A stretch of 64,000 nucleotides of DNA. It comes from a virus (taxonomy: Duplodnaviria > Caudoviricetes). The stretch spans positions 495 through 64,494 of IMG/VR virus record IMGVR_UViG_638276466_000001; one strand, given 5' to 3'. The first letter of the stretch is position 1. Each line of letters begins with the position of its first letter. A program made the translations under genes and the position numbers. The notes beneath the pieces were generated by a model that saw nothing but the letters and a program-made list of their open reading frames with translations, ran no database searches and was not told the origin of the DNA. This document shows positions 35 through 1,120 of the stretch, in pieces.

Positions 35-1030
35 ATGCGTCGCAAGGATTTGGACCATCCCAACTATCGCAGCATGCCGTGTCTGATGTTCCATGTGCCA
101 TTGCAGTTCCGCGGACACTATCGCGTGGAACGTCTCGCGAACTTCTCGGGCGACCCGGACGATTATCGAATCGACAACCACGGCTACCGGCTGTGTGAGG
201 CTGAGACACCGCGACGGCCCACGGGTTGCCTCAAGCGTGCAAGCAACCGACAGCCGTACTGCGAGCAGCATGGCGCGCGCCTACACCCGCTGGACAAGGT
301 GCGAGTTGATCCCAAGGATCCCAGCACCATGACGCGTATGGAGCTGTTGACGCACGGGTACATTGATGTGGAAGACCTCACCGACGACGAACTCAAAAAT
401 GGGCTCGTGGCTCCGGGGCGTGGTGGCAACGCAATGATCCACTTGCCCAAGGACGTGTACACCAAGATTGTCAACAGGCACTTTGACCGTGCCAAGGAGC
501 TGATGCTGGAGGGGATGATCCCAGCCATCAAGGTGCTCAGAGACATTGCAGAGAACAAGCACGACATCTACGAAGCCAAAGACCGCGTCAAGGCCGCCAC
601 CTACATTGTGGACAGAGTCCTTGGTAAGCAACCAGATACGGCACTGGTGCTGGGCGGTGCTGATGGCGGGGCCCAGGAGCCCTGGCAGCAGATTGTGGCC
701 GGGATCATGGACAACACGCGTGCGGAATCCCGTGCGGCGCGCGCGCTCCCCTCTGGCGGAGATGGCGCTACGCTCAACCACAACGGTGAGGCCGAGGAGG
801 TTCTCGATGTTGAGGTTGTGGAAGAGTCTGCGGCAGATCATGATTCAGCGACGCCGCGAACGCCAAACGACACGGGACCTGATGCGAGCGCTCTCATCGC
901 AGCCGTAGCGCCGAATGCAAAGCCCAAGCGCGCCAAGGCCAAGGCGTCTGCTGGCACGAGTGGCACGAGTGGCACGGATGGAAAGCCTGCCAAGGTGCGG
1001 GTCAAGCGGCCGAAGCGCGACGCCAGGTAA
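35..1030 (+). CDS. probable terminase small subunit (HGGxSTG-like Cys/His motif plus helical domain)
   Basis: C-x10-C-x9-CxxHG motif, then AIKVLRDIA...DRVKAATYIVDRVLGK helix typical of actinophage small terminases; upstream of large terminase; start uncertain. Confidence 0.55.
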   Translation: MRRKDLDHPNYRSMPCLMFHVPLQFRGHYRVERLANFSGDPDDYRIDNHGYRLCEAETPRRPTGCLKRASNRQPYCEQHGARLHPLDKVRVDPKDPSTMTRMELLTHGYIDVEDLTDDELKNGLVAPGRGGNAMIHLPKDVYTKIVNRHFDRAKELMLEGMIPAIKVLRDIAENKHDIYEAKDRVKAATYIVDRVLGKQPDTALVLGGADGGAQEPWQQIVAGIMDNTRAESRAARALPSGGDGATLNHNGEAEEVLDVEVVEESAADHDSATPRTPNDTGPDASALIAAVAPNAKPKRAKAKASAGTSGTSGTDGKPAKVRVKRPKRDAR

Positions 1031-1033
1031 GCT
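1028..1033 (+). promoter_or_regulatory. putative -10 element TAAGCT upstream of hairpin RNA and small basic genes
   Basis: G-TANNNT hexamer at the start of an intergenic gap, as in several other gaps of this genome. Confidence 0.35.
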
Positions 1034-1070
1034 TCGCGGTGCGGGGTGGACGCGAGGCCGCCAAGCAACC

Positions 1071-1120
1071 GGAGTGGACCCGGGATTCGCGCAGATTCCC
1101 TTCTGTCCCGGGTTCACTCC
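1071..1120 (+). ncRNA. candidate antisense sRNA hairpin complementary to the AGAAGGGAATC RBS motif
   Basis: 15-bp stem GGAGTGGACCCGGGA/TCCCGGGTTCACTCC (one G-U) with 20-nt loop; 1091-1107 GCAGATTCCCTTCTGTC is the exact reverse complement of 42139-42155. Confidence 0.55.

What the first reader, a model, noticed from the sequence alone, without database searches (positions are those of the whole stretch)
1028..1120. Hairpin RNA whose loop is antisense to the shared RBS of about 10 non-structural genes: candidate global translational switch
Seen: the gap after gene 1 has a TAAGCT -10-like hexamer, then a 15-bp stem (1071-1085/1106-1120) with a 20-nt loop. Positions 1091-1107, GCAGATTCCCTTCTGTC (15 nt in the loop), are the exact reverse complement of the RBS region at 42139-42155 (17/17). 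They also match RBS regions at 37965-37978 (14 nt), 38635 (12), 57330 (12), 53024 (11), 47340 (11), 34934-34944 on the minus strand (11), 49171 (10, dnaE), 38936 (10) and 60603 (8, primase). I saw no structural gene using the full motif. On the minus strand no ATG/GTG/TTG follows this copy at RBS spacing, so it is not simply another RBS. Established: pyrimidine-rich single-stranded loops seed RBS occlusion in Gram-positive sRNAs such as S. aureus RNAIII and RsaE. Inference: an sRNA or leader from the packaging/late region pairs with a class-specific extended RBS and shuts off (or modulates) early and replication gene translation. I know of no description of this.
Basis: partly seen in the sequence, partly recalled or inferred. 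Interest (0 to 1): 0.92.

Follow-up and report, generated by a model that had tools for sequence, protein, structure and literature searches.

The report
Phage RNA hairpin mirroring shared ribosome-site tag
A mycobacterium-infecting phage puts the same short tag at the ribosome-binding site of about ten early and replication genes and keeps one mirror-image copy at the tip of a conserved RNA hairpin next to its packaging gene, so one RNA may control all of them together, although no such RNA has yet been observed.

Summary
The window is a Cluster D1 mycobacteriophage (Plotvirus).

The hairpin (1071-1120) lies in the 121-nt gap between a terS-like gene and small gene 3. Most GenBank records start gene 3 inside the stem, and that start is very probably wrong.

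- All 8 D1 records are identical across the gap.
- The diverged D2 phage Hawkeye keeps 13 loop bases (1094-1106) exactly. Its stem arms are 30-48% identical yet still pair, using G-U pairs that only the + strand tolerates. This points to a + strand RNA structure with a selected loop.
- With accessibility included, the loop pairs at -7.6 to -17.4 kcal/mol with 10 of 86 start regions, against 1 of 500 control windows.

I then found the same design, independently, in Cluster K phages. The single "opposite orientation" start-associated sequence noted in 2011 sits in the apical loop of a strong hairpin in K1, K4 and K5.

Weaknesses:
- No transcript data exist for Cluster D.
- The 17/17 match alone is not significant.
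- Four other K subclusters lack a clear mirror hairpin.

Other agents in this scan have reported the same layout in other phages. I found no published description. Verdict: real, probably an anti-RBS RNA element; its function is untested.

The parts
1028..1033 (+). -10-like hexamer TAAGCT (TANNNT), overlapping the TAA stop of the terS-like gene 2
   Evidence: Hawkeye (D2) has TAGGAT, also TANNNT, at the aligned place. GTAAGCTTC recurs in the gap at 41433, and GTAGGCTTC recurs before dnaE at 49150. Promoter activity has not been tested.
1033..1062 (+). Conserved element A (TTCGC..TGCGGGGTGGA.GCGAGGCC), unique in the genome
   Evidence: 26 of 32 columns over 1031-1062 are identical between D1 and D2, against 30-58% in the neighbouring segments. 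There is no second copy in the window or in Hawkeye. Its function is unknown.
1071..1085 (+). 5' arm of the outer stem
   Evidence: The arm sequence is unrelated in Hawkeye, but pairing is kept.
1086..1091 (+). 6-nt 5' bulge UUCGCG
   Evidence: MFE and centroid structures.
1092..1095 (+). Inner helix, 5' side (CAGA; CGGA in D2)
   Evidence: It pairs with UCUG at 1102-1105. The A-to-G change in D2 keeps the pair as a G-U.
1096..1101 (+). Free hexaloop UUCCCU, the likely seed
   Evidence: The cost of keeping it unpaired is 0.01 kcal/mol. It is identical in D1 and D2.
1094..1106 (+). 13 nt GAUUCCCUUCUGU, invariant between D1 and D2, antisense to the start motif ACAGAAGGGAAUC
   Evidence: Opening 1093-1104 costs 2.8 kcal/mol.
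1102..1105 (+). Inner helix, 3' side (UCUG)
1106..1120 (+). 3' arm of the outer stem; no U tract follows
   Evidence: The terminator scan found nothing on the + strand here.
1140..1154 (+). AAGGAG RBS and ATG (1152), the probable true start of gene 3 (38 aa)
   Evidence: D1 and D2 proteins align only from MAK onward. Erk16 is annotated from this ATG.
42139..42155 (+). Start region of gene 56, 17/17 complementary; best predicted target (net -17.4 kcal/mol)
37965..37978 (+). Start motif of gene 50 (14 nt)
   Evidence: net -11.7.
38635..38646 (+). Start motif of gene 51 (12 nt), downstream of a SigA-like promoter
   Evidence: (net -12.4).
38936..38945 (+). Start motif of gene 52 (10 nt), downstream of a SigA-like promoter
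   Evidence: (net -9.3).
34934..34944 (-). Start motif of leftward gene 42 (11 nt)
   Evidence: net -10.3.
47340..47350 (+). Start motif of gene 64, methyltransferase (11 nt)
   Evidence: (net -8.7).
49171..49180 (+). Start motif of gene 67, DnaE-like polymerase (10 nt)
   Evidence: net -7.6.
53024..53034 (+). Start motif of gene 69, ThyX (11 nt)
   Evidence: net -11.6.
54277..54291 (+). Degenerate motif GACAGGAGGGGATTC before gene 70 (RuvC-like)
   Evidence: net -9.3, with G-U pairs.
57330..57341 (+). Start motif of gene 78 (12 nt)
   Evidence: net -10.5.
60603..60610 (+). Partial motif (8 nt) before the primase/polymerase gene 88; not among the 10 predicted targets
   Evidence: It is absent from the 16 best rows listed.

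Best explanation
The 1071-1120 hairpin is a conserved + strand RNA element that acts as an anti-RBS mirror. Its accessible tip (hexaloop UUCCCU, extendable to about 12-17 nt) base-pairs with the class-specific start motif (AC)AGAAGGGAAUC. That motif covers the Shine-Dalgarno region of about ten non-structural genes: 42, 50, 51, 52, 56, 64, 67/dnaE, 69/thyX, 70 and 78. In D1 relatives it also covers terS.

The most likely consequence is that the duplex occludes the ribosome-binding site and lowers translation of this set together. The hairpin lies at the junction between the packaging gene and the structural gene array. It would therefore be carried on the leader of the structural (late) mRNA, or on a short RNA started at the TANNNT hexamer at 1028.

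Shown here: the structure, its conservation, the strand, the complementarity and its specificity, and the recurrence of the design in Cluster K.

Inferred: that the RNA is made, that the pairing happens in the cell, the direction of the effect, and its timing.
For: 1. Non-coding. The annotated extensions of gene 3 read the conserved loop in different frames in D1 (QIPFC) and D2 (GFPSV). Protein similarity starts only at the ATG at 1152. Erk16 is annotated from that ATG.

2. Structure under selection.
- The 121-nt gap is identical in all 8 D1 records.
- Against Hawkeye the loop is 13/13 identical, while the 5' arm plus bulge is 15/31 and the 3' arm plus spacer is 13/43.
- Both sequences still fold into the same form: long stem, 5' asymmetry, 4-bp inner helix, UUCCCU loop. 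z is -5.47 for D1 and -4.20 for D2.

3. Strand. The + strand folds better than the - strand: D1 -33.8 against -29.3, D2 -34.1 against -23.4. This reflects one G-U pair in D1 and four in D2.

4. Specificity.
- For the loop stretch 1093-1106, 10 of 86 start regions reach -16 kcal/mol or lower, against 5 of 8,035 other sense windows. Only 1 of 300 shuffled loops reached the observed count of 12 start regions at -14 or lower.
- With opening energies included, 10 of 86 start regions score -6 or lower, against 1 of 500 control windows. The next start region scores -5.0.

5. Hawkeye uses the same motif. Of 15 hits, 12 lie before an ATG, 2 lie inside genes, and 1 is the loop.

6. Independent recurrence. 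In Cluster K the single reverse start-associated sequence lies in the apical loop of a strong + strand hairpin, and the stems and genomic positions are unrelated between subclusters.
- Adephagia (K1): -33.7, z -5.95.
- Kratio (K5): -36.5, z -6.22.
- Fionnbharth (K4): -50.4, z -6.12.

7. The Adephagia hairpin lies in the gene 92-93 gap. That is where 'late transcription appears to initiate' (PMC11373665, section 19, passage read).

8. No known RNA family matches.
Against: - No RNA evidence exists for Cluster D.
- No U tract follows the stem, so a discrete terminated sRNA is not indicated.
- Loop and motif are both invariant between D1 and D2, so Cluster D offers no loop-target covariation. The flanking matches point to different best targets in D1 (gene 56) and D2 (genes 55 and 59).
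- The 17/17 match alone occurs by chance in 11 of 60 simulations.
- Any pyrimidine-rich loop complements purine-rich ribosome sites to some degree.
- Only 6 nt are fully free. Using 14-17 nt costs 6-10 kcal/mol of opening.
- TM4 (K2) and Pixie (K3) have 12 and 17 forward copies and no reverse copy. Unicorn (K6) and Aminay (K7) have only 1-mismatch reverse hits outside strong hairpin loops. The tag therefore works without a mirror.
- In Fionnbharth the mirror hairpin lies before the DNA primase gene, not at the late operon.
- The Anaya hairpin is weaker (z -2.56), and its - strand has a more stable alternative fold.
- TerS relatives outside Cluster D show neither motif enrichment nor such a hairpin.
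Confidence: 0.55

Rival explanations
1. The hairpin is a terminator, processing or stabilising structure at the terS / late-gene junction. Its conserved loop is a protein-binding site, for example for an antitermination or RNA-binding factor, and its complementarity to the start motif has no function.
For: It is a strong GC-rich stem 41 nt after a stop codon. It lies at an operon junction. The upstream element A is also conserved and has no antisense relation to anything. In Fionnbharth the analogous hairpin sits between two genes, as a terminator would.
Against: There is no U tract, whereas the phage has a canonical terminator with one at about 49091-49120. A protein site would not need to mirror the start motif. 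The mirror relation recurs with a different motif in Cluster K1, K4 and K5 on unrelated stems.
Confidence: 0.17
2. The loop acts only in cis within one long mRNA. It would fold back on the terS start region 1.1 kb upstream (GACAGAAGGGAG in D1) to autoregulate packaging-gene translation, rather than acting on the early regulon.
For: In Penelope2018 the terS start region carries 11 nt of the motif, including the GAC flank. The hairpin directly follows terS.
Against: The Hawkeye terS homologue has no motif at its annotated start, yet the loop is kept exactly. The net pairing energy is better for gene 56 and gene 50. The Cluster K mirror hairpins are not next to terS.
Confidence: 0.1
3. It is a DNA-level site. 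The motif would be the binding site of a DNA-binding protein that accepts either orientation, or the hairpin region would be part of the pac site recognised by the adjacent small terminase.
For: It lies next to a terS-like gene. Asymmetric DNA operators co-oriented with transcription exist in Cluster A phages (the stoperators, as cited in the Pope 2011 passage read). A GCGCGAATC box shared with the promoter family lies in the hairpin on the minus strand.
Against: The stem arms covary with G-U pairs that make the - strand much less stable, which a double-stranded DNA site would not require. The motif keeps a fixed 3-7 nt distance to start codons. The GCGCGAATC box is not kept in Hawkeye, and the 9-mer also occurs inside two genes.
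Confidence: 0.08
4. It is coding sequence, the N-terminus of gene 3 as annotated in most D1 records, or else it is a chance resemblance.
For: SirHarley, Nova, Penelope2018, KandZ, Gumball and Benzema annotate gene 3 from the GTG at window 1074. A 17-mer inverted pair arises by chance in 18% of simulations.
Against: The loop is read in different frames in D1 and D2, and the extension shows no protein similarity. A strong AAGGAG sits 6 nt before the ATG at 1152. Loop conservation is 13/13 beside arms that are 30-48% identical. The design recurs in Cluster K.
Confidence: 0.04

Closest known systems
Start-associated sequences (SAS / ESAS) of Cluster K mycobacteriophages (Pope et al. 2011, PMC3203893; passages read)
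   Same: Both are asymmetric conserved motifs a few bases before start codons. Both are confined to non-structural genes, often after intergenic gaps, and extend beyond a plain Shine-Dalgarno sequence. [quoted passage not shown] The authors left open whether the partner is an RNA or a protein.
   Different: The sequence differs (ACAGAAGGGAAUC against GGGATAGGAGCCC), the phage cluster is unrelated, and Cluster D is lytic. No ESAS-type 17-bp inverted repeats were seen here. The mirror hairpin is not described in any of the three papers I searched: PMC3203893, PMC11373665, and PMC12699233 (which gave 0 hits for hairpin, antisense, opposite or reverse).
C-rich-loop base-pairing sRNAs of Gram-positive bacteria (S. 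aureus RsaE, RNAIII); recalled, not looked up here
   Same: An unpaired UCCC-type loop on a stable stem is complementary to the Shine-Dalgarno region of several mRNAs.
   Different: This element is phage-encoded. No separate transcript or U-tract terminator is evident. The targets carry a private 10-13 nt tag rather than a generic ribosome site. No Rfam family matches.
c4 antisense RNA of phages P1 and P7; recalled, not looked up here
   Same: A phage RNA whose loops pair with the ribosome-binding region of phage mRNA, encoded upstream within the same transcription direction.
   Different: c4 has one target operon (icd-ant) and is processed from its own transcript. Here about ten dispersed targets share one tag.
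Class-specific control of early-gene ribosome sites in T4 (RegB nuclease, RegA repressor); recalled
   Same: Translation of a class of early genes is shut down through their ribosome-site region.
   Different: Those systems use proteins. Here the candidate effector is an RNA loop.
Intrinsic transcription terminators
   Same: A GC-rich stem-loop shortly after a stop codon.
   Different: There is no U tract. The loop sequence is invariant while the stem drifts. The loop mirrors a genome-wide motif.

Membership tests
Start-associated sequences (Cluster K type), applied to the target motif | Asymmetric conserved motif within a few bases upstream of start codons | tested here: met
   9 of 13 copies with up to 1 mismatch lie 3-7 nt before a start codon. 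In Hawkeye the figure is 12 of 15.
Start-associated sequences (Cluster K type), applied to the target motif | Confined to non-structural genes | tested here: met
   All 9 start-site copies lie at 34.9-57.3 kb. Only 8-nt fragments occur before structural genes 11 and 16. The exception is terS in Penelope2018, with 11 nt.
Start-associated sequences (Cluster K type), applied to the target motif | Consensus GGGATAGGAGCCC | tested here: not met
   The motif here is ACAGAAGGGAATC. It is an analogue, not a member.
Start-associated sequences (Cluster K type), applied to the target motif | Single copy in the opposite orientation, not at a gene start | tested here: met
   In the window, 1095-1104 on the minus strand is the only such copy. 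Hawkeye has one at 2010, Adephagia at 58682-58694 and Anaya at 59873-59881.
Start-associated sequences (Cluster K type), applied to the target motif | Conservation beyond what can pair with 16S rRNA | tested here: inconclusive
The AAUC and AC flanks are conserved.
Trans-acting base-pairing sRNA with a C-rich seed loop | Unpaired C-rich seed on a stable stem | tested here: met
   The hexaloop UUCCCU costs 0.01 kcal/mol to keep open, and 1093-1104 costs 2.8 kcal/mol.
Trans-acting base-pairing sRNA with a C-rich seed loop | Complementarity to the ribosome-site region of several mRNAs, above background | tested here: met
   10 of 86 start regions against 1 of 500 control windows at a net -6 kcal/mol or lower.
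Trans-acting base-pairing sRNA with a C-rich seed loop | Own promoter and terminator giving a discrete transcript | not testable with these tools
   A TANNNT hexamer is kept in D1 and D2. There is no U tract. No RNA holder was listed.
Trans-acting base-pairing sRNA with a C-rich seed loop | Measured effect on target translation or stability | not testable with these tools
   This needs reporters, ribosome profiling or toeprinting.
Intrinsic terminator | GC-rich stem-loop followed by a U tract | tested here: not met
   The stem is present. The tail is CCAAGAACUGCAGG, and the scan found no + strand site here.
Protein-coding N-terminus of gene 3 (as annotated) | Same reading frame and protein similarity across relatives | tested here: not met
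   The frames differ over the conserved bases, and similarity starts at MAK.
Any Rfam family | Match at or above the gathering score | tested here: not met
   0 matches in the whole window. Over 980-1200 there were only 4 chance-level hits, with E 0.65-7.6, far below gathering scores.

The most novel reading that the evidence does not exclude
'Start tag plus mirror hairpin' is a convergent regulatory device of actinobacteriophages. A phage labels a regulon of early and replication genes with a private extended ribosome-site tag. It also encodes one RNA hairpin whose loop is the tag's antisense. Through loop-to-tag pairing, that RNA tunes or shuts off translation of the whole regulon at once.

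Cluster D (this window), Cluster K1, K4 and K5 would be independent inventions of this device. It would also explain what start-associated sequences are for, a question the 2024 Adephagia paper still describes as unresolved.
Probability: 0.45. Interest if true: 0.9.

Novelty: new variant of a known kind. Interest (0 to 1): 0.8.

Why it matters
Start-associated sequences were described in 2011. The 2024 Adephagia paper still says that their role is not known (passage read). A mirror hairpin supplies a concrete RNA partner, and therefore a mechanism that can be tested.

Cluster D phages grow on Mycobacterium smegmatis mc2 155. Phage genome editing by recombineering is established in that host and was used in PMC11373665, so loop mutants and compensatory mutants are feasible.

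If the model holds, it would be an RNA-only way for a phage to switch a dispersed set of genes together. It would also matter for annotation, because several GenBank records place gene starts inside these hairpins. It could further supply a small modular translation-control part for mycobacterial genetics.

Tried and rejected
- **Collection scans with loop 14-mers.** These are chance matches apart from the IMG/VR copy of Hawkeye, so they are not informative.
- **Searching for more relatives.** The search for related loci with the terS-like protein or with the D1+D2 alignment found only Hawkeye, so there are no further Cluster D-like lineages to test covariation.
- **RNA runs.** No RNA holder was listed.
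- **Rfam.** Nothing was found.
- **TerS relatives outside Cluster D.** In Lambo, DrLupo, Papyrus and Indlulamithi the regions after terS show no comparable hairpin, and the motif is not enriched. Indlulamithi has 7 reverse-strand near-matches, which I did not follow up.
- **Duplex energies with a 25-nt GC-rich stretch.** These did not discriminate targets from background. I replaced them with the conserved loop stretch and with an accessibility-corrected calculation.
- **Kissing-loop idea.** The idea was that the tag itself forms a mini-hairpin presenting AGGGAA. Only 4 of 9 D1 start-site copies have 3 or more closing pairs. I keep it as an option for genes 50, 51, 52 and 56 only.
- **Loop-flank covariation with one fixed target.** This was inconsistent between D1 and D2.
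- **Cis pairing with gene 3's own AAGGAG.** Gene 3 is not among the best 22 start regions.
- **GCGCGAATC box.** The box the hairpin shares with the promoter family is not conserved in D2, and the 9-mer also occurs in two coding regions. It is probably chance.
- **Promoter at 1028.** This rests on a TANNNT hexamer and a weak AAGCGS -35 at 18 nt, read by eye. That -35 lies in Lys/Arg codons, so I do not rely on it.
- **Papers not held.** PMC4199240 and the ZoeJ paper PMC6452893. Either may mention these hairpins.
- **Literature searches for a prior description.** Searches found none.
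Full report
**What the window is.** Bases 1-3300 match eight Cluster D1 mycobacteriophage records (Plotvirus: SirHarley, Gumball, Penelope2018 and others) at 97-99% identity. Window position 1 corresponds to about genome position 495. The left 33 kb holds packaging, virion and lysis genes. From 36 kb rightward lie non-structural and replication genes, with three leftward genes between the two blocks. The gene upstream of the finding is gene 2. It matches PHROG 10899, 'terminase small subunit', at E 1.2e-46, and has no Pfam hit.

- The stop codon with TAAGCT lies at 1028-1033. The 15-pair stem is 1071-1085/1106-1120, and it has one G-U pair at 1077-1114.
- 1091-1107 is the exact reverse complement of 42139-42155.
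- The core AGAAGGGAAT with up to one mismatch occurs 13 times against 2.82 expected, and 0 of 100 shuffles reach 13. Nine copies sit 3-7 nt before a start codon, three lie inside genes, and one is the loop.
- The hairpin folds at -33.8 kcal/mol, z -5.47. It is among about a dozen loci, 31 of 12,788 windows, at or below -33 on the + strand.

Two cautions apply.
- The 17/17 match is the only inverted pair of 16 nt or more in the window, but 11 of 60 Markov simulations also produced a 17-mer inverted pair. The length of that one match is therefore not the evidence.
- The '20-nt loop' is predicted to contain a 6-nt bulge, a 4-bp inner helix (CAGA/UCUG) and a free hexaloop UUCCCU.

**It is not coding.** Six D1 records annotate gene 3 from a GTG that corresponds to window 1074, inside the stem. 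Hawkeye gene 4 is likewise annotated from a GTG upstream. Translating both shows the conserved loop bases read as QIPFC in D1 and as GFPSV in D2. Protein similarity begins only at MAK, the ATG at 1152, which has AAGGAG 6 nt upstream. Erk16 is already annotated from that ATG. The hairpin therefore lies in a 121-nt non-coding gap.

**Conservation pattern.** All eight D1 records are identical over the gap. Against the D2 phage Hawkeye, identity by segment is as follows:

| Segment | Identical columns |
|---|---|
| Loop, 1094-1106 | 13/13 |
| 5' arm plus bulge | 15/31 |
| 3' arm plus spacer | 13/43 |
| Gene 3 coding sequence | 58/117 |

Hawkeye nevertheless folds into the same form, with a 17-pair outer stem, 5'-side asymmetry, an inner CGGA/UCUG helix and a UUCCCU hexaloop, at -34.1 kcal/mol and z -4.20. 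The + strand folds better than the - strand in both phages: -33.8 against -29.3, and -34.1 against -23.4. This is because the stems contain one G-U pair in D1 and four in D2. That is the signature of an RNA made from the gene-sense strand. A second block upstream, 1033-1062, is also conserved (26/32 columns) and is unique in the genome. I cannot explain it.

**The target motif.** Hawkeye uses the same motif. Of 15 hits, 12 lie before an ATG, 2 are internal and 1 is the loop, often before orthologues of the D1 genes. The consensus (A)ACAGAAGGGAAT(C) equals the complement of the invariant loop.

I measured pairing in two ways.
- With the loop stretch 1093-1106, 10 of 86 mapped start regions reach -16 kcal/mol or lower, against 5 of 8,035 other sense windows. 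Only 1 of 300 composition-matched shuffled loops hit as many start regions as the real loop.
- With opening costs included, keeping the hexaloop unpaired costs 0.01 kcal/mol and opening 1093-1104 costs 2.8. The net energies then split cleanly. Ten start regions fall between -17.4 and -7.6: genes 56, 51, 50, 69, 78, 42, 70, 52, 64 and 67. The next start region is at -5.0, and 1 of 500 control windows reaches -6.

That fits early expression. Most targets have no known function. In Penelope2018, terS itself carries 11 nt of the motif just outside the window. Hawkeye terS does not.

**An independent parallel.** Pope et al. 2011 described 13-nt start-associated sequences (SAS) before non-structural genes of Cluster K phages. 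[quoted passage not shown] They left open whether an RNA or a protein recognises the sites (PMC3203893, passages read). I located that reverse site in several Cluster K phages.
- **Adephagia (K1).** The site is at 58682-58694. It is the 10-nt apical loop, CCUCCUAUCC, of a + strand hairpin at -33.7 kcal/mol, z -5.95. The hairpin again has an outer stem, a 5' bulge and an inner helix.
- **Anaya (K1).** It has the same hairpin, though weaker (z -2.56), and its - strand has a more stable alternative fold.
- **Kratio (K5).** Its one exact reverse copy lies in the 13-nt loop of a 16-pair hairpin, -36.5, z -6.22. The hairpin sits just before the terminase gene, inside an annotated small gene whose start is doubtful.
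- **Fionnbharth (K4).** Its one exact reverse copy lies in the loop of a -50.4, z -6.12 hairpin, in the gap before the DNA primase gene.

The stems and positions of these hairpins are unrelated to one another. Only the loop content is shared. The Adephagia hairpin lies in the gene 92-93 gap, where 'late transcription appears to initiate' (PMC11373665, section 19). A TTTAGACT element conserved among K1, K2 and K3 lies about 95 nt upstream of it.

Against generality:
- TM4 (K2) and Pixie (K3) have 12 and 17 forward copies and no reverse copy.
- Unicorn (K6) and Aminay (K7) have only one-mismatch reverse hits, outside strong hairpin loops.

**Interpretation.** The most economical reading is RNA-RNA pairing between an exposed loop and the tag at the ribosome site of a gene set. 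The likely effect is occlusion of the site. I put this at 0.55.

The structure, the strand, the selection on the loop, the specificity and the recurrence are shown. Transcription, pairing in vivo, the direction of the effect and the timing are inferred.

The position at the terS / structural-gene junction in Cluster D, and at the late-transcription start in K1, suggests delivery on the late mRNA leader. The K4 position does not fit a universal late switch.

Rivals are listed separately with their odds:
- a terminator or processing hairpin with a protein-bound loop;
- a purely cis action on terS;
- a DNA-level site;
- coding sequence or chance.

**Known or new.** No Rfam family matches. My literature searches found no description of a Cluster D start motif or of mirror hairpins. 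The same is true of the passages I read in three Cluster K papers, including a 2025 survey of 188 genomes that has no occurrence of 'hairpin', 'antisense', 'opposite' or 'reverse'. Two relevant papers were not held, and supplements were closed.

Base-pairing RNAs that occlude ribosome sites are a known kind, so I class this as a new variant of a known kind.

Other agents in this scan have reported the same layout in other phages, and some noted the Cluster K parallel. I saw those notes only after making the Cluster K analysis. They are unchecked AI notes and are not independent support.

Noticed in passing
window 1074-1151; L002 1523-1642; L263 about 336-470 (Kratio gene 4): Gene starts annotated inside conserved hairpins are probably wrong. 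This applies to D1 gene 3 (GTG at 1074), Hawkeye gene 4, and possibly Kratio gene 4. Hawkeye gene 59 also probably starts at the ATG at 42556, after the motif, and not at 42490.
   Followed up: partly
window 2-1030: Gene 2, annotated as hypothetical in all D1 records, matches PHROG 10899 'terminase small subunit' (E 1.2e-46). It has homologues in Gordonia (Lambovirus) phages and in Cluster H and R mycobacteriophages at 34-40% identity.
   Followed up: partly
window 1033-1062: A block, TTCGC..TGCGGGGTGGA.GCGAGGCC, is conserved between D1 and D2 (26/32 columns over 1031-1062) just upstream of the hairpin. It is unique in both genomes and its function is unknown.
   Followed up: partly
window 35846, 38584, 38891, 56032 (+); 34987, 35766 (-): A SigA-like promoter family, TAGCSC-N18-TAACGT/TACGAT, has a GAATCGG box in the spacer. 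An inverted copy of the box lies at 49131-49142 before dnaE. The 9-mer GCGCGAATC also lies on the minus strand inside the hairpin (1084-1092), but it is not kept in Hawkeye.
   Followed up: partly
window 1027-1035, 41433-41441, 49150-49158: GTAAGCTTC (twice) and GTAGGCTTC (once) all lie in intergenic gaps and contain TANNNT hexamers. They may be -10 elements of another promoter class.
   Followed up: no
window about 49091-49120: A canonical terminator-like hairpin with a U tract (GGCCUCCCC GAGA GGGGAGGC, then UGAAUUUUCC) lies between gene 66 and dnaE. It shows that the phage does use U-tract terminators.
   Followed up: no
window 45264-45568: A long, imperfect 9- to 15-nt periodic repeat encodes an Asp/Glu-rich tract in gene 60 (called 'Asp-rich protein' in Hawkeye).
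   Followed up: no
window 63570-63900: An AT-rich region follows the primase/polymerase gene. It contains a strong AGGAGGG site and an ATG at 63789 that is not annotated in Penelope2018. It may be a small gene or a regulatory region near the arbitrary genome ends.
   Followed up: no
window 11941-11993: A 21-nt inverted repeat, 90% complementary with an 11-nt spacer, is among the most stable local folds (-38 kcal/mol). It lies at the start of gene 18.
   Followed up: no
L255 1062-1114 (Adephagia); L263 398-443 (Kratio); L265 167-229 (Fionnbharth): Cluster K1, K5 and K4 phages each carry their single reverse start-associated sequence in the apical loop of a strong + strand hairpin. All three loops read CCUCCUAUCC where a perfect complement would begin with G, so they share one consistent mismatch to the tag.
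   Followed up: partly
W04 (Indlulamithi, MN585993.1): There are seven reverse-strand near-matches to AGAAGGGAAT (xxAAGGGAAT) against two forward-strand ones. This may be a related start motif on leftward genes.
   Followed up: no
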